Positions 1 to 54,350 of a DNA stretch of 64,000 nucleotides are shown piece after piece. Each line of letters starts with the position of its first letter. Within the stretch, counting starts at the first letter, position 1. The notes below the pieces were generated by a model, which saw only the letters and a list, made by a program, of their open reading frames with translations, was not told the DNA's origin and ran no database searches. The stretch lies in the NCBI GenBank assembly GCA_964016885.1, contig OZ024741.1, positions 171,740,001 to 171,804,000 of the forward strand, read 5' to 3'. A program made the translations under genes and the position numbers. The stretch is from Eledone cirrhosa. Its lineage: Eukaryota.

Positions 1-180
1 ACCACTTTGCAGTGGAATGATAGGGACCCCAATCCTATCATCTCATTTCTACAGCTGAGTAAACTGGAGCAATGTGAAATAAAGTGTCTTGCTCAAGGAA
101 ACAACACATCACCCGTTGTGAGAATTGAACTCACAACCTTTCGATTGCAATCCCAATGCTCGAACCACTAAGCCATGTGT
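1..180 (-). mobile_element. tRNA-derived SINE family B (CORE-like body, RTE-derived tail), partial at window edge
   Basis: Minus strand reads tRNA-like head (catggcttagtggttcgagcattgg...gtgagttcaattc), then ccttgagcaagacactt; near-identical to 10790-10967 and 57935-58110. Confidence 0.8.
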
Positions 181-5917: not shown

Positions 5918-6222
5918 TCAACGAGGTTTCCACCTGAAGTTGTAGGGTGCAGCTCTACTGACAATATCCCAGTGTGTGGAGAAGTTTATGTTGGCGTCTT
6001 GCAATGTGGTGACGTAGTTGGCAAGCGATGTGGAGCGCCTTAATTTTTTGTTCCTGAAAGAGTGGAGATGCGTTCTAAATCTCATTTTAAGCTGGCCAGA
6101 GGTGGCTCCTATATAGTGTTTAACTCCGCTATGGCTAGTTACGGTGCACCTATAAACAACCTTATCAGTCAGGCAGTTTCCCCTGAGAGGGCAGCCTACC
6201 CTGTCACGCAGTTGCATTTTCC
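5918..6222 (-). pseudogene. PLE GIY-YIG endonuclease with CxCx5C linker
   Basis: KCNC[1-nt frameshift]RDRVGCPLRGNCLTDKVVYRCTV...HYIGATSGQLKMRFRTHLHSF...TSLANYV. Confidence 0.85.
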
Positions 6223-6544
6223 GTCACGGTCGCTCCTAGTTCCTAAAGTAAAGCTATTACTATTGCTATCTATGTTGTTATCTATGTCTCTAACTCCGTC
6301 ATTGGTACTGTTATCTCTCAAGGCGTGCGGTCTTGTACAATTATTATTCCGCACGCCGCAGCCCGTTCTGCTGCCGGTGGGTGATGCGTGTGGGTCGACA
6401 GTATATTCTCCAATACGCCCTGATTACGTGGGTTTCGTCTGTCGGGGCGGCCATCCACCCTATTTGGTGCTGTTAGGGGGATGTTAAGGTTATTAGTGTT
6501 GTTGTCATGTCCAGATGTATCTGTGCTAAGGTGTAGTGTTTTGT

Positions 6545-6765
6545 TAATCTTACTGTGATTAGTTGTTCCTATGATGTCAGCTAGATTGGGGGTGGTAGAG
6601 AAGGATAGTTTGATATTGTTCCTCTTAAGTATTTTTCTCTATTTATGTTTAGGTGAGAAATTCCTCTCCAAGGCTTCGAAGAATATCCTCGGTACGTCGG
6701 AGGCCATACTCCGAGAGTAGGGGGGAGGGCAACCATATAATATTACGGTGCCGTTTCCGCTTTAC
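6545..6765 (-). pseudogene. PLE post-RT conserved segment
   Basis: Manual translation KRKRHRNIIWLPSPYSRSMASDVPRIFFEALERNFSPKHK*RKILKRNNIKLSFSTTPNLADII; not in ORF track. Confidence 0.75.
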
Positions 6766-7140
6766 AGTTGGTTGCTACAGGTTGTGCTTCCTAGTTGACA
6801 GTACTTACGTTTGTTCCTGTGCTGTAGCCGGTTATTCGTCCCCATTACTTTATGTTCAGGTGGGGGCGCCTTACCTCTGTACTTTCTATGTGTAGCTCGA
6901 CGCGGGCTGGAGGATGTTGGTAATAAGCCGTCGCAGTTGCTGGTCTTATAGTTAGGGAATAACTCTAATAGGCTGCAGCGGGTGGCGCTACCAATCGGGT
7001 AACACTTACCATACTGTCGGTTGTCTTGGTCGCCACTCATGTAATTAACAGTGTGGCCAAGTTTCTTAGTGTGGTTCTCTATACTATAGTTCTTGACGCT
7101 GTCATGGCTGTAGCGTCCTCTGTTATAGTTATGGCTCACT

Positions 7141-8678
<1,538 letters not shown>

Positions 8679-10644: not shown

Positions 10645-10967
10645 TTTTACGTCCGCTTTTCCCTGCTTGCAAGTGTGGGAGAGGAACTGATTCTGGCTTG
10701 ATTTCTACAGCTGGATGCCCTTCCTAACACCAACCTCATTTACAGTGAGTGGTGGGTGCTTTTTTTCCGTGGCACCTCCACAACCACTTTGCAGTGGAAT
10801 GATATGGACCCCAGTCCCTATCATCTCATTTCTACAGCTGAGTAAACTCGAGCAATGTGAAATAAAGTGTCTTGCTCAAGGAAACAATACATCACCCAGT
10901 CTGAGAATTGAACTCACAACCTTTCGATTGCAAGGCCAATGCTCTAACCACTAAGCCATGTGCCTCC
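10645..10967 (-). mobile_element. SINE family B (tRNA head + CORE-like + RTE 3'UTR tail)
   Basis: Head ggaggcacatggcttagtggttagagc; tail shares tgttaggaagggcatccagctgtagaaatcaagcc with the RTE 3'UTR at about 15690-15740. Confidence 0.8.
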
Positions 10968-11003: not shown

Positions 11004-11016
11004 ATATATATATATA

Positions 11017-11205
11017 TAATTGTTTCTACTTTTGGCACAATGCCACCAATTACCCAGTACATTACTGGTACTTTATTTTATCGACCCCGTAAGGATGAAA
11101 GGCAAAATCAACCTCGCCGGGATTTGAACTCAGATCATAAAGGGACGTAACTATGCTGGAAAGCATGGCGTCCGACCCTCTACCGATACTGCCTATCCAC
11201 CGCCC
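11017..11205 (-). mobile_element. SINE family A, full length
   Basis: Spans tail (ataattgtttctac) to head (ccaccgccc). Confidence 0.9.
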
Positions 11206-11220
11206 TTAATATATATATAT

Positions 11221-11688
11221 AATAAGGGTTGACGGACCCAGCATATTTATCAATGCCAGTACCAGTTGTATCTCAGCGCACTCAATGGGCAATGTAAGAT
11301 ACATTACTAGAGTATACACATAGTTATTTGCCTCAACAAATCACACGTAAAACGGGTGCCTATAAGGTTCCCGGACTCGAGTTTCTGCCGCACTAATGCA
11401 GCAGTAAGGTGCACTGCACCATCTGTCTGCATATATTATGCAACAATGCACAATCGGCTTATGCGGCTTCATCAGCGGGTATCGCCTAATCAATAACCAA
11501 TCGAACGACAGAATCTAAACACCGGCCCATGCCGGTCATGACTGTTTGTGACAACCGACACGGTAAAGCGATTAACTGGCAACCGATAGGACTCTATCTC
11601 TCAACTAGCCACTGATTTACAAATTTTACGTGGGGACGAGAAGCTAAAAAGAATCAATCTTTTAGTTCCTGTCAGAAGCTCTCAGCCA
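11221..11688 (-). mobile_element. (TA)n-embedded non-coding element carrying a hammerhead ribozyme
   Basis: GC-richer block bounded by TA runs; hammerhead at 11370-11479. Confidence 0.7.
11370..11479 (-). ncRNA. Type-I hammerhead ribozyme, intact core, extended helix II
   Basis: Minus strand: cccg-CTGATGA-a-gccgca...(~69 nt)...tgcggc-a-GAAA-ctcgag-TC-cggg. Stem I cccg/cggg, helix II gccgca/tgcggc, palindromic helix III CTCGAG, GUC site. Confidence 0.85.
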
Positions 11689-11795
11689 ATATATATATAC
11701 ATACATATATATACATATATATATATATATAATTGTTTCTACTTTTGGCACAGGGCCATCAATTATCCAGTACATTACTGGTACTTTATTTTATC

Positions 11796-11998
11796 GATTG
11801 TTGGTATATATACACATATATACCATGCTAGCGTGGAAGATAGACGTTAAATGACGATGATGATGATGATGATGATATGTATACAAATATATAAACATAC
11901 ATGCTCACATAATCACATGCACATACTTATATATAGCACACTCATATACACTCAGTCACATGTATCTAGTCACACATATCTATGATATCTATAGCAAT

Positions 11999-12033
<35 letters not shown>

Positions 12034-12149
12034 ATATATATATATATATATATGCTTGAATATTTTTATTTATCAATAATTATAAAAATATTGATATGTA
12101 AGCAGATAAGAACATAAAGATTTGAAATTCTTTGTTTATGTCTACAAGA

Positions 12150-12206
<57 letters not shown>

Positions 12207-12565
12207 AACATGTAGGACCCCGACGGCTGAGCTCAAGCCGTTTCGACGGCTAATTCTGGACCAAGAATTAGCCGTCAAAACGGCTTGAGCTCAGCCGTCG
12301 GGGTCCTACTTGTTCCTATTACCCACTCTACTACCCTAAGTATTGAGTACTTTGGTGCCTTATGGTCCACCTGGTTCCTTACCACATTTCCTTCATTATA
12401 TATATATATAATGAAGGAAATGTGGTAAGGAACCAGGGTAGTAGAGTGGGTAATAGGAACAAGTAGGACCCCGACGGCTGAGCTCAAGCCGTTTTGACGG
12501 CTAATTCTTGGTCCAGAATTAGCCGTCGAAACGGCTTGAGCTCAGCCGTCGGGGTCCTACTTGTT

Positions 12566-12612
<47 letters not shown>

Positions 12613-12706
12613 TCTTGTAGACATAAACAAAGAATTTCAAATCTTTATGTTCTTATCTGCTTACATATCAATAATTTTATAATTATTGATAAATAAAAAT
12701 ATTCAA

Positions 12707-12742
<36 letters not shown>

Positions 12743-12972
12743 TATATATATATATATATATATATCTATTGCTATAGATATGATAGATATGTGTGACTAG
12801 ATACATGTGACTGAGTGTATATGAGTGTGCTATATATAAGTATGTGCATGTGATTATGTGAGCATGTATGTTTATATATATTTGTATACATATCATCATC
12901 ATCATCATCATCGTCATTTAACGTCTATCTTCCACGCTAGCATGGTATATATGTGTATATATACCAACAATC
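11796..12972. repeat. ~1.2-kb nested palindrome centred on (TA)n near 12403
   Basis: Arms are reverse complements from gattgttgg (11796) to ccaacaatc (12972), with a few substitutions, microsatellite length differences and one ~35-bp indel. Confidence 0.9.
12204..12395. mobile_element. Fold-back hammerhead-element remnant (mirror copy at 12411-12569)
   Basis: 13-bp helix II gacggctaattct/agaattagccgtc, GAAA, helix III cggct/agccg, GTC, then ggggtcc; the CUGANGA half is replaced by an inverted copy; downstream gtattgagtac motif. Confidence 0.7.
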
Positions 12973-15569: not shown

Positions 15570-17355
15570 TCATCATCATCACCGTTTTACGTCCGTTCTT
15601 CCACGCTAGCATGGGTTAGACGGGTTGTCCTGTTGTGGGCAGTGTCTGGTCGGCTGACCATGCCTTGCTCATACAGGAACTGATCTGGCTTGATTTCTAC
15701 AGCTGGATGCCCTTCCTAACACCAACCTCATTTACAGTGAGTGCTGGGTGCTTTTTCGTGGCGCCTACACGTCCACTTTACAGTGTGGGCTGGGTGCTTT
15801 TTTGCCGTGGCACCTCCACGACCACCTTGCGGTGGGGGGGGGGGGGGCATATTGTTTATATGCTTCAGCATGTACCCATGGGAGGTCGGGTACCCTGTAT
15901 TACTGCGTGACGCCAGAAGTCACGGTCGTGTGTCATTGACTTTGAGAGGTGTAGTTGGGTAAGGTCGGCTTTTATCACCTCATCCCAAGTCATCTTGGGT
16001 CTCCCCACTCCGCGGTTTCCATCAACTTCTAGTGCTCTGCACCTTTTTATGCAGCTGTCATCCTTCATACGCATCACATGTCCATACCAGCGTAACCGCC
16101 TCTCCTGCACGCAGCATTTGATTCCTCTTATGCTCAGTCTCTCTCTCAATTCATTTATGCTTTGTCGTTCACGTATATTACTGTTACACATCCATCGGAG
16201 CATGCAGGCTTCGTTTCTCTCTAATCTACGTAAGTCTTCCACCTTCAGCGCCCAGGTCTCACTACCATGCAACATCGCTGTTCGGATACACGCATCATAC
16301 AGTCTGCCTTTCATTCTGAGGGAGAAGCCTTTTGCAGCTAGCAGTGGTAGTAGTTCCCTAAACTTCTTCCATCCCGTTCTTACCCTAGTTATTGTACTTT
16401 CTGAGCACCCACCTCCGTTGCTAATTCGGTCACCTAGGTAGCAGAAGCTGTCTACTGTTTCTACAGGGCCCTCCCAGAGATTGGTGGTACTTGTTTCCTG
16501 TGGCTGTTTGCTTGCTGTTTCAGCACAGCTGCTGCATGTGAATCCTACATTCTTAATTAAGCTTCCTGAGATCCCGCTACATCTCTTGTGTACCCATTGT
16601 TTGCATTTGGGGCAGAGAATGGAGTTCCTACCTACACCTTTCCTACATACTGAGCAAGGCCATTTCCCTGAGGGGATCTGGGTTCTGTTTTCTCGTCTAC
16701 TTATAAGGACCTTAGTCTTTGTCATGTTGACTTTGAGGCCCTTTCTCTCTAGTCCCTGCTTCCAGGTTTGGAATTTATTCTCTAGTTCTACCATAGATTC
16801 AGCTATGAGTGCGAGGTCATCAGCATACAGGAGTTCCCATGGGCATCCGGTCTTAAACTCCTCCGTTATTGCCTGCAGGACTATGATGAACAGGAGAGGG
16901 CTAAGAACAGAGCCCTGGTGGACCCCAACCTGTACGCTAAATTCCTCGCTATACTCATTGCCAATCCTAACTTTGCTGACTGCTCCCCTATACATGGCTT
17001 GTACCGCTTTCACAAGCCATTCATCTACTCCTAGTTTTCTAAGAGCCCACCAGATTACTGCACGTGGAACTCTGTCAAAGGCTTTCTCAAGGTCGACAAA
17101 TGCCAAGTAGAGTGGCTTACTTTTAGCTAGGTACTTTTCCTGTAATTGCCTCACAAGGAAGAGCGCATCAGTGGTGCCTTTCCCTGGAACAAACCCAAAT
17201 TGCATCTCGTCTATATTCACCCGGTCCCTAATCAGCTGTGCTATAACTCTTTCTGTTACTTTCATGACCTGGTCCATCAACTTTATACCTCTATAGTTTC
17301 CTCTATCTAGTGCATCGCCTTTACCTTTGTAGCAGTTGACAATGATGCTACTGCA
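15570..17355 (-). mobile_element. RTE-clade LINE, 5'-truncated, young
   Basis: Uninterrupted RT ORF, 3'UTR with ~40-bp sub-repeats, (GAT)n tail at 15570. Confidence 0.95.
15865..17355 (-). CDS. RTE reverse transcriptase C-terminal part with PHD-like Cys/His finger (no native start)
   Basis: NYRGIKL, QFGFVPG, FVDLEKAFD, GVHQGSVLSPLLF, YADD, CSVC...CPKC..WVHKRC...CSSC, HGSETW, RLRWYGHVMR, GRPKMTW. The ORF-track N-terminus upstream of about 17355 is flank read-through. Confidence 0.9.
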   Translation of the reverse strand, partial: CSSIIVNCYKGKGDALDRGNYRGIKLMDQVMKVTERVIAQLIRDRVNIDEMQFGFVPGKGTTDALFLVRQLQEKYLAKSKPLYLAFVDLEKAFDRVPRAVIWWALRKLGVDEWLVKAVQAMYRGAVSKVRIGNEYSEEFSVQVGVHQGSVLSPLLFIIVLQAITEEFKTGCPWELLYADDLALIAESMVELENKFQTWKQGLERKGLKVNMTKTKVLISRRENRTQIPSGKWPCSVCRKGVGRNSILCPKCKQWVHKRCSGISGSLIKNVGFTCSSCAETASKQPQETSTTNLWEGPVETVDSFCYLGDRISNGGGCSESTITRVRTGWKKFRELLPLLAAKGFSLRMKGRLYDACIRTAMLHGSETWALKVEDLRRLERNEACMLRWMCNSNIRERQSINELRERLSIRGIKCCVQERRLRWYGHVMRMKDDSCIKRCRALEVDGNRGVGRPKMTWDEVIKADLTQLHLSKSMTHDRDFWRHAVIQGTRPPMGTC

Positions 17356-18499
17356 CGTATACAATGATGCTACTGCATGTATACAAATATATAAACAAAC
17401 ACGTGTCCACACACAGACATGCTCACACAATCACATACACATATATAGCACACTCATATATACTCAGTCACATTACAAGGGTAAATAAAAGAAATAGCAG
17501 GAGTTTACATAAGATTCAGTAGGAGAAAGCAATCATCACCATCATCTTCATAATTTTTCATTTGCGTCCCTGTTTGCTTCCTTTGGATGTTCTTATTTGG
17601 AGTTACAACTTGCTCGTAGCAGCATGAGCAATTTAGAAAGAAAATAAATTCAATGTCCCAATAAGGGAACATCCATTCGGACCAAATAAGGGAATACTAC
17701 AGATCCCAGATTACCCTTATTACCAAACACAAGTGCTGTATGACAGCTGGGTATTCATGCATATGTATACACTGAGAGAAGGTCGATTCATAGAAGCTAT
17801 ATTGCCAATTCTTGCTCACATTTCAGTAAATTTACTGGAGAGCAGCACATCTCTACCCTCAACTTCCTCTCTGAGTGAAATTTGAAGAAGTTGATGAGGC
17901 TTGGCTGAAGAAGGAGGTGTTTGTCTTCAATTTTTTTCAATCTTGTCTGTCTGTCACACAATCTCTTTTACTATAGCCACAAGACAAAGGACATTGGCAG
18001 GATGTGCAAAGGACATTGACAGGATGATCCTCAAAATGGACTCTGCTAATAGTTGGATCTGTCCTACTCATGAAGAAAGTAGGAGAAAATTGAGAAAAAT
18101 TAAGGATGAAAAAGAGAGAGGAAACAAAAATAAGTGAGGAAACATATAGAAGGTTGATGATAAAAGGAGACTTAGGAAGAAAGGAGAAAAAAGAGTGGGA
18201 GAAAAAAAGAGATGAGATGAGAGATGAAAGATGGCAGATAAACATGTGGTAGAAGTGGTGATAGGGGATAATGGGAATAGTATGGGGTTAGTAAATACAT
18301 TAACAGAAATGAAATAAGAAAAATAGGAAGAGAAAAACAGAAAAAGTACAAAAAATGGGTTAATTATTTAGGTCAACTGAATCAATATATTTGTACTAAT
18401 TGTGAATCTATCTACATATATCCTTGCCTGCTTCTTTATCTATATAAGCATCCATGCTATCATCCACACCTACTACTGTTGCCTTTAAAAATTTCATAT

Positions 18500-52261: not shown

Positions 52262-52881
52262 TCATCATCATCATCATCACCGTTGTACGTCCGTTCTTCC
52301 ACGCTAGCATGGGTTAGACGGGTTGTCCTGTTGTGGGCAGTGTCTGGTTGGCTGACCATGCCTTGCTCATACAGGAACTGATCTGGCTTGATTTCTACAG
52401 CTGGATGCCCTTCCTAACACCAACCTCATTTACAGTGAGTGCTGGGTGCTTTTTCGTGGCACCTACATGTCCACTTTACAGTGTGGGCTGGGTGCTTTTT
52501 TGCCGTGGCACCTCCACGACCACCTTGCGGTGGGGGGTGTGGGGGCATATTGTCTATATGCTTCAGCTTGTACCCATGGGAGGTCGGGTACTCTGTATTA
52601 CTGCGTGACGCCAGAGGTCATGGTCATGTGTCATCGCTTTTGAGAGGTGTAATTGGGTAAGGTCGGCTTTTATAACCTCATCCCAGGTCATCTTGGGTCT
52701 CCCCACTTCGCGGTTTCCATCGACTTCTAGTGCTCTGCACCTTTTTATGCAGCTGTCATCCTTCATACGCATCACATGTCTATACCAGCGCAACCGCCTC
52801 TCCTGCACACAGCATTTGATTCCTCTTATGCTCAGTCTCTCTCTCAATTCATTTATGCTTTGTCGTTCACGTATATTACTG
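52262..52881 (-). mobile_element. RTE LINE 3' fragment, close to the 15570 copy
   Basis: Near-identical to 15570-16180. Confidence 0.95.
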
Positions 52882-53079
52882 TTTTTTTTACACCCATATA
52901 TTACACCCATATATATCATATATATATATATATATATATATACTAGACCACCCGTGACCCGTTGGGCCATGTTCACTTCAAAATATTGTTCATGTTCACT
53001 TAAAAATAATTTTTAAATAATTAGAATATACACAGATCACAGGTAAGCTAACTAAGAACATAGATTTTACATGTGGCCG

Positions 53080-54350
53080 GTGCTCTGGTGCAATAAGTAG
53101 CAGCAAGTGCCCACAAAATACTAGCTCCTTCAACTGCGCAGAGGGTTCTATAGAAATAGTGGACAGCTTCCGTTATCTGGGTGACAAAATCAGCAGTGGG
53201 GGAGGGTGCTCTGAAAGTACAGTAGCTAGAGTCAGAACTGGATGGAAAAAGTTCAGAGAGCTTATACCACTATTAGCCGCTAGAGGGTTCTCCCTAAAAA
53301 TGAAAGGCAGGTTATACGATGCCTGCATACGAACAGCAATGCTGCATGGCAGTGAGACCTGGGCATTGTGTGCAGAGGATATACGCAGACTAGAGAGGAA
53401 CGAAGCTTGCATGCTCCGCTGGATGTGCAATAGTAATATATGTGAACGGCAAAGCATAAACGAACTAAGGAAAAAATTAGAAATAAGAGGGATCAGATGT
53501 TGTTTACTCGAGAGAAGGCTACGTTGGTACGGTCACGTGATGTGCATGAAAGACGACAGCTGTATAACAAAGTGCAGGGCAATAAAGATAGAAGGTAGCC
53601 ACGGAGTAGGCAGACCCAGAAAAACATGGGACGAGCTGATAAATTCCGACCTCACACGCTTACACCTCTCCAAGACAATGTCACTGGACCGAGACCTTTG
53701 GCGGTACTCAGTAATAGAGAAGACCCGCCTTACCTAAATACAAAGTAAAAACCTACTACAGTCAGTAGGCATCTCTATCAAAACACACCCCCGTCCCACC
53801 ACCTCCACCCCACCCACACGCCCCTTTCAATGTAAAGTTATGTTGGTCCCACAACATCCAGGCCGAAACAAATGAGATCGTGTAGGTGTCACGACAAAAA
53901 ACACACAGTCCACGCTGTAAATGTGGCCGTGTAGGCAACACGGTAAAAACCTCCCAGCCCCACACTGTAAATGTGGTTGGTGTTAGGAAGGGCATCCAGC
54001 TGTAGAAAACCCGCCAGACAGTCCACGCTGTAATGTGGCCGTGTAGGCAACACGGTAAAAACCTCCCAGCCCCACACTGTAAATGTGGTTGGTGTTAGGA
54101 AGGGCATCCAGCTGTAGAAAACCCGCCAGACAGTCCACGCTGTAATGTGGCCGTGTAGGCAACACGGTAAAAACCTCCCAGCCCCACACTGTAAATGTGG
54201 TTGGTGTTAGGAAGGGCATCCAACTGTAGAAAACCCGCCAGACAGTCCTATGCAAGCAAGACAACCACTCTTGCCTCAAGTGGGAAAACCCCCGTCCAAA
54301 CCCATGCAAGCGTGGAACACGGATGCTAAACCTGATGATGATGATGATGA
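53080..54350 (+). mobile_element. RTE subfamily 3' fragment with triplicated UTR segment
   Basis: ORF 53159-53737 (DSFRYLG...HGSETW...GRPRKTW); (GAT)n tail. Confidence 0.9.
53906..54248 (+). repeat. 3x ~112-bp tandem repeat
   Basis: Units start cagtcc at 53906, 54019 and 54131, with a partial at 54243. Confidence 0.95.

What the first reader, a model, noticed from the sequence alone, without database searches (positions are those of the whole stretch)
11370..11479. Intact hammerhead with ~70-nt insertion in helix II and palindromic helix III
Seen: full core, 4-bp GC stem I, 6-bp helix II base, a long loop with further hairpin potential (tgcataatatatgca; gcagtgcaccttactgc), and CUCGAG helix III before GUC. 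Known: minimal PLE hammerheads with palindromic helix III are proposed to cleave as dimers. Inference: the large helix II domain may supply tertiary contacts or a protein-binding site, and would probably be missed by standard covariance models.
Basis: partly seen in the sequence, partly recalled or inferred. Interest (0 to 1): 0.75.

Follow-up and report, generated by a model that had tools for sequence, protein, structure and literature searches.

The report
Oversized hammerhead in a jumping repeat
A hammerhead self-cutting-RNA motif with an unusually large folded side arm sits in hundreds to thousands of copies of an 840-base non-coding repeat in this animal genome; the repeat is likely copied by Penelope-type retrotransposons, and the RNA is predicted, not shown, to cut only when two copies pair.

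Summary
The motif is real (minus strand 11479-11370, cut predicted after C11374) and Rfam misses it (13.9 bits against a cut-off of 34). It is not a one-off insertion. The window holds a 5'-truncated copy of an 840-nt non-coding head-to-tail repeat with a fixed 3' end in TA microsatellite. 451 exact long-arm motifs occur genome-wide (control 0). Three subfamilies, 67-90% alike, keep the 83-84-nt helix II domain: a 7-bp stem plus two hairpins, with a few compensatory changes. Ten other unrelated motifs with long helix II, one behind a 785-codon Penelope-like frame, show this is a genome-wide variant. Best reading: a Penelope-type, dimer-dependent hammerhead in a non-autonomous Penelope derivative (retrozyme-like). 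Cleavage, expression, the mobilising partner and the role of the arm are untested; copy 5' ends do not pile up at the cut site. This scan noted what is probably the same family elsewhere in this genome (e1-8673761) and a similar one in another genome (e1-8667016). New variant of a known kind.

The parts
11222..11689 (-). 5'-truncated copy (unit positions 379-840) of an 840-nt non-coding head-to-tail repeat, flanked by (TA)n on both sides
   Evidence: core-to-core distance 840 in L022
11370..11479 (-). Type I hammerhead motif with oversized helix II
11476..11479 (-). Helix I, 5' strand (pairs with 11373-11370)
   Evidence: 92% of cells paired, no double change
11469..11475 (-). Core CUGAUGA (C3-A9), followed by extra A at 11468
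   Evidence: intact in 30 of 31 close copies
11387..11467 (-). Helix II domain: 7-bp base (11467-11461 with 11393-11387), hairpin A (11454-11435, 8 bp), long hairpin B (11432-11396), meeting in a three-way junction (predicted)
11382..11386 (-). Extra A at 11386 (mismatched 11.1 position), then core GAAA
11375..11382 (-). Self-complementary ACUCGAGU: 2-bp helix III as monomer, 8-bp duplex between two copies
   Evidence: duplex -10.7 kcal/mol
11374..11374 (-). C17; predicted cut on its 3' side
   Evidence: inferred from hammerhead consensus
11222..11373 (-). Tail between predicted cut and the fixed 3' end, the inferred start point of reverse transcription
   Evidence: 29 of 30 close copies end at unit position 840
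11314..11332 (-). 19-nt tail motif shared (18 of 19) with the terminal repeat of an abundant 927-codon Penelope-like family
11482..11508 (-). Block just 5' of the hammerhead that is conserved in diverged subfamilies; ATTGG (reverse CCAAT-like, recalled motif), possible promoter element
   Evidence: function untested

Best explanation
This is a Penelope-type hammerhead motif whose helix II carries a conserved, predicted two-hairpin domain, and it sits in an 840-nt non-coding repeat that is likely copied by a Penelope-like element's reverse transcriptase/endonuclease; it is predicted to cut slowly, and only when two copies pair through the palindrome, likely with protein help. Shown: motif, repeat unit, fixed 3' end in TA/TTA microsatellite, variable 5' truncation, more-than-unit copies, family-wide arm. 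Inferred cycle: a more-than-unit copy is transcribed through two hammerheads; the Penelope protein nicks AT-rich DNA and starts reverse transcription inside the RNA about 150 nt 3' of the cut site; the template is mostly uncut multimer or re-ligated circle, so copies run through the cut site and past one unit. The arm most likely serves as a folding and protein-docking module that keeps the helix II base closed, while the 10.1-11.1 mismatch and short helix III keep monomer cutting low. The window copy has one hammerhead and 0.55 unit, so it is probably a dead-end insertion.
For: Unit of 840 nt in head-to-tail order. 29 of 30 close copies end at one position before (TA)n/(TTA)n with scattered 5' ends. 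788 exact tail matches and 451 exact long-arm matches, controls 0. Sister subfamilies 67-90% alike keep the arm: 15 of 19 core-bearing loci have 83-88 nt, 4 have internal deletions. Structure: 91.7% of 1618 cells paired; double changes G-C to A-U (columns 22/101: 14 vs 26) and C-G to A-U (21/102: 2); slid controls 27-48%. Between window-type and sister majorities 7 of 12 differing columns are unpaired, 3 keep pairs. Dimer fold is the predicted optimum for two isolated motifs, -93.5 against 2 x -40.7 kcal/mol. Protein-coding Penelope-like families with their own palindromic-helix-III hammerheads exist in the genome. Literature: extra base after A9, palindromic helix III, low activity (PMC4209133); internal initiation, AT-rich targets, protein-assisted cleavage, uncut RNA as main template (PMC11167929); retrozymes of 51-972 bp as Penelope derivatives (10.64898/2026.07.22.740005).
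Against: No cleavage or expression data. 5' ends show no pile-up at the cut: 0 of 65 copies start there exactly, 5 lie within 137-149 nt against 6 within 115-125 nt, 41 run past it. The number of pairs with a double change (8) is not above shuffles (6.2; 91 of 500), and the double changes are a few inherited events. Core invariance in alignment A1 is biased because copies were picked by core motifs. 10.1-11.1 is a standard pair in only 5 of 86 copies, though PMC4209133 calls G10.1-C11.1 highly conserved. With native flanks helix I has probability 0.02 or less. No autonomous partner found: three families examined share at most a 19-nt motif with the unit. Pfam did not recognise the two full-length proteins, so calling them Penelope-like rests on recalled RT and GIY-YIG motifs.
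Confidence: 0.68

Rival explanations
1. The repeat is a true rolling-circle retrozyme: the hammerhead cuts efficiently in vivo, the 840-nt monomer is ligated to a circle, and more-than-unit copies come from reverse transcription round the circle.
For: 5 of 11 more-than-unit copies in the tail sample hold two cut sites. The two laps agree at 23 of 28 diagnostic sites against 16.3 expected for random pairs. The unit folded as a circle has z -3.8 against 30 shuffles. Non-LTR retrozymes make circles (PMC7229834).
Against: 2 of 9 loci have laps that disagree (3 of 8 and 2 of 4 sites), which one circle cannot give. Agreement is equally expected from a linear dimer source. No long tandem arrays were seen among the loci held. 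The core is the weak Penelope type, not the canonical retrozyme type.
Confidence: 0.3
2. The hammerhead is catalytically dead or nearly so in the window's subfamily; the fold is kept only as a recognition structure for the Penelope protein or is simply inherited.
For: A-A at 10.1-11.1 in 55 of 86 copies; no 5' pile-up; active fold not predicted with flanks; in Anolis, cleavage was not needed for insertion in vitro (PMC11167929).
Against: All other core bases are kept in subfamily majorities (with selection bias). Four unrelated motifs with 88-99-nt arms (three families) also have a mismatch there, which suggests a tolerated design. A natural U-U at 10.1-11.1 is reported (PMC3088659).
Confidence: 0.2
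3. The 840-nt unit is the terminal repeat of an autonomous element not yet found, and the arm is the coding start of its protein (the AUG of CUGAUGA opens a frame).
For: The frame from that AUG has a median of 93 codons in 64 window-type copies; the Anolis ORF starts at stem II.
Against: Median 46-51 codons and a shifted frame in sister subfamilies. Units join head-to-tail with no ORF between. No long RT frame attached in the loci examined.
Confidence: 0.08

Closest known systems
[quoted passage not shown]
   Same: Type I, 4-bp helix I, long helix II stem, extra base after A9, short palindromic helix III, dispersed single copies from truncation.
   Different: 83-84-nt branched helix II domain; extra base before G12 so that 10.1-11.1 is a mismatch; host unit has no ORF.
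Animal non-LTR retrozymes (Cervera and de la Pena 2020, PMC7229834, part 2 of 6 read; Li, Clavereau, Pollet 2026, 10.64898/2026.07.22.740005, parts 1-3 of 5 read)
   Same: Non-coding head-to-tail unit with one type I hammerhead per unit, length inside the reported 51-972 bp, co-occurring with Penelope-like elements.
   Different: Mostly dispersed 5'-truncated or 1.0-1.7-unit copies with a fixed 3' end in TA microsatellite; no long arrays seen; Penelope-type rather than canonical hammerhead; circles not shown; possible retained intron.
Poseidon element of Anolis, PAc (Frangieh et al. 2024, PMC11167929; passages and second part of main text read)
   Same: Fixed 3' end roughly 100-150 nt downstream of the hammerhead, AT-rich target, AUG overlapping the core, copies not bounded by the cut site.
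   Different: PAc is autonomous with a small helix II; here non-coding with a large arm.
Rfam Hammerhead_1 (RF00163)
   Same: Aligns to core, helix I and helix III.
   Different: 83 positions in place of 14; 13.9 bits against a gathering score of 34.

Membership tests
Hammerhead ribozyme, type I | Core CUGANGA, GAAA, UH joined by three helices, helix I open | tested here: met
Hammerhead ribozyme, type I | Purine-pyrimidine pair at 10.1-11.1 next to G12 | tested here: not met
   A-A 55, A-C 25, A-U 3, G-C 2, A-G 1 of 86; the first G-C pair is one step out
Hammerhead ribozyme, type I | Site-specific self-cleavage after N17 | not testable with these tools
   no RNA reads; indirect 5'-end test negative
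Hammerhead ribozyme, type I | Loop 1-loop 2 tertiary contact | tested here: inconclusive
   candidate pairing without compensatory change
Penelope-type hammerhead | Short palindromic helix III and extra base after A9 | tested here: met
Autonomous Penelope-like element | ORF with RT and GIY-YIG between terminal repeats | tested here: not met
   unit non-coding, head-to-tail
Non-autonomous Penelope derivative | Fixed 3' end, 5' truncation, partial tandem copies, microsatellite targets | tested here: met
Non-autonomous Penelope derivative | Homology to the terminal repeat of an autonomous element | tested here: inconclusive
   one 18-of-19 motif with one family (0 of 100 shuffles reach it); none with two others; other families not examined
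Non-autonomous Penelope derivative | Retained spliceosomal intron (optional in the family) | tested here: inconclusive
   GTAAG in 54 of 59 and AG in 56 of 58 copies, 89 nt apart; 0 of 53 copies lack it; no spliced joint in contigs of unknown kind
Non-LTR retrozyme | Non-coding tandem unit with a type I hammerhead in consecutive units | tested here: met
   two motifs 840 nt apart in L022, L156-type and L158 loci
Non-LTR retrozyme | Abundant linear and circular unit-length RNA | not testable with these tools
   no RNA holder listed

The most novel reading that the evidence does not exclude
Oversized, branched helix II coupled to a mismatched 10.1-11.1 position defines a distinct class of protein-gated hammerheads in Penelope-like elements and their parasites: the arm docks the element's RT/EN protein, which switches on dimer cleavage late in the cycle. 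Standard descriptors miss the class, so elements scored as having no hammerhead or a 'half core' (Craig et al. 2021, PMC8557442) may carry it.
Probability: 0.25. Interest if true: 0.75.

Novelty: new variant of a known kind. Interest (0 to 1): 0.5.

Why it matters
The role of hammerheads in Penelope-like elements is an open question (PMC8557442, PMC7761336 passages). Here several unrelated families in one genome carry large structured helix II arms, and one family supplies natural variants (A-A, A-C, A-U, G-C at 10.1-11.1; GUC, GUA, GUU triplets; arm deletions). That is a ready panel for testing whether the arm aids folding, binds the element's protein or is neutral. It also shows that Rfam and short-loop descriptors undercount these motifs. 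The window copy itself is an ordinary truncated insertion.

Tried and rejected
Expression: no RNA holder listed; the four runs are contigs of unknown kind from one study, so cannot show starts, ends or splicing; no joint skipping the putative intron was listed. RNAalifold gave an inactive consensus fold with no double changes. A first intron guess ending at unit position 423 was dropped: that AG is absent in 15 of 15 diverged copies. The broken Penelope-like gene at window 5920-8450 is not linked to the motif by sequence beyond the 19-nt motif. A short-arm ancestor was sought: one match, a deletion derivative. A pattern for other palindromes with a long GC arm gave 0. The single metagenome match is a chance hit in a bacterial-looking gene. 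The lap-against-lap divergence test could not separate circle from dimer. Lunse et al. (PMC5785218) is not held; only its title was seen in a reference list. Searches for a printed description of such arms found none, but supplements were not read and subscription papers are not searched.

Full report
Observation. The minus strand shows helix I (11479-11476 with 11373-11370), CUGAUGA (11475-11469), an 83-nt helix II region, GAAA (11385-11382), the palindrome ACUCGAGU and C17 at 11374. Rfam reports only two tRNA-like hits in the window at gathering; Hammerhead_1 aligns here at 13.9 bits against 34. One unpaired A flanks each side of helix II. The one after A9 is a known Penelope trait (PMC4209133); the one before G12 makes 10.1-11.1 a mismatch.

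Host element. A DNA search of the 3.0-Gb own genome gave 2450 first-look candidates, of which 40 were scored, all 96-100% alike. All 31 copies aligned from 30 loci carry the long arm and 30 keep CUGAUGA; these were chosen for likeness. Copies extend 5' by varying lengths. L022 holds two cores 840 nt apart, joined head-to-tail through a (TAT)n run. Of those 30 loci, 29 end at unit position 840 and run into (TA)n or (TTA)n; the window copy covers positions 379-840. Exact patterns give 788 tails, 451 long-arm motifs and 426 motifs with a base other than A before GAAA, each with 0 in the reversed control. The unit has no conserved frame: the AUG inside the core opens a median 93 codons in 64 window-type copies but 46-51 in sister types.

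The arm. Loose ends in contigs revealed sister subfamilies. Among 30 sister loci, 19 have a core and arm (15 of 83-88 nt, 4 with internal deletions), 7 have a point change in the core and 4 are truncated or rearranged; identity to the unit is 67-90%. The window's domain folds at z -3.8 (0 of 500 shuffles); the median over 46 copies is -2.9, 31 below -2. The best fold is a 7-bp base, an 8-bp hairpin and a long bulged hairpin. On 44 distinct rows this structure pairs 91.7% of cells, with 27 double-change cells against 15.0 in shuffles, but 8 double-change pairs against 6.2 is not significant. The clear events are G-C to A-U and C-G to A-U in the base, G-U to A-U in hairpin A, and, in the GUA subfamily, a one-base register shift of the inner hairpin with an A-U pair in 13 rows. 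These are few independent events, so support is moderate. At 10.1-11.1, 81 of 86 copies are mismatched.

Dimer dependence. As a monomer helix III has probability about 0.01; the palindrome forms an 8-bp duplex of -10.7 kcal/mol, and two isolated motifs co-fold into the double-hammerhead form. With native flanks helix I drops to 0.02 or less. This fits the low, dimer- or protein-dependent activity reported for Penelope hammerheads, but it is prediction only.

Copying mechanism. I took the first 70 of 788 tail matches in genome order. Five were flagged as internal to longer copies and left out of the length list; one more internal copy was missed by the flag, two rows are a duplicate, and a few 5' ends are ambiguous. 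Of 65, none starts at the cut site, 5 start within 137-149 nt of the end, 6 within 115-125 nt, and 41 run past the cut. Eleven of the 70 exceed one unit and 5 of those hold two cut sites. The template is therefore usually uncut or re-ligated, as found for the Anolis element. Laps agree at 23 of 28 diagnostic sites (16.3 expected), with 2 of 9 loci discordant, which does not separate circle from dimer. A possible 89-nt intron (unit 40-128) has GTAAG in 54 of 59 and AG in 56 of 58 copies and is kept in 53 of 53 spanning copies; intron retention is typical of Penelope-like elements, but splicing is not shown.

Partner. Two abundant protein-coding families were examined, with 927- and 821-codon frames. 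Pfam names neither; I call them Penelope-like from recalled RT and GIY-YIG motifs and their terminal repeats. The first has a hammerhead with a U3-A8 core and shares an 18-of-19 tail motif with the unit (0 of 100 shuffles reach 18). The second has a 36-nt helix II and no match. The partner is not identified.

How special is the arm. A generic scan of 0.87 Mb of held sequence found 11 other motifs (10 families by eye) with helix II regions of 47-99 nt and palindromic helix III, against 1 in reversed sequence. All four of 88-99 nt have a mismatch at 10.1-11.1. One, with 88 nt, lies about 960 nt behind a 785-codon frame like the first family; 6 of 9 loci examined (three genomic regions) carry the motif, each behind such coding sequence. 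Oversized arms are thus a recurring trait here, not peculiar to this repeat.

Novelty. Penelope-type hammerheads and non-coding derivatives are known. Papers seen-8 bp a long helix II; Craig et al. note half cores 35-50 nt apart in Naiads. Seven searches found no description of an 80-100-nt branched helix II with a mismatched 10.1-11.1; supplements and the Lunse paper were not seen and may hold such cases. Verdict: new variant of a known kind, interest 0.5. The host looks like a cephalopod genome, a recalled guess that no call establishes.

Noticed in passing
window 5920-8450 (-): Broken Penelope-like RT/GIY-YIG gene with stops; member of a family with 30,907 first-look candidates and intact 927-codon copies.
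   Followed up: partly
window 11796-12972: Near-perfect 1.2-kb inverted repeat with two nested 118-nt palindromes (12202-12319, 12453-12570) that carry GAAAC before CUGA-like words, perhaps the re-ordered hammerhead family that other notes describe.
   Followed up: no
L091:5863 and 2530 region; L092-L099: Terminal-repeat hammerhead of the 927-codon family has the U3-A8 core variant and an 8-nt palindrome.
   Followed up: partly
L243:1966 and 5830: A very young 821-codon family with near-identical copies has a hammerhead with a 36-nt helix II and ATGCGCAT palindrome.
   Followed up: partly
L011, L028, L050, L098, L100, L144, L166, L200, L218, L018/L134: Ten unrelated hammerhead families with helix II regions of 47-99 nt, several lying next to the 840-nt repeat in shared TA tracts.
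   Followed up: partly
window 11005-11205 (-); L005, L105, L107, L128, L142, L206: The same short repeat (SINE-like) follows the 3' end of the 840-nt element in several copies.
   Followed up: no
window 11679-11680 (-), unit about 388: A two-base site that varies widely among otherwise 96% identical copies.
   Followed up: no
window 118-175 and 10897-10960 (-): tRNA-like hits at Rfam gathering, probably heads of tRNA-derived repeats.
   Followed up: no
window 15865-17430, 52563-53737 (-): RTE-like LINE fragments with RVT_1 and PHD matches in the first.
   Followed up: no
G000:C1:349.19-349.39 Mb: Nine tail matches within 200 kb in alternating orientation, suggesting a local amplification.
   Followed up: no
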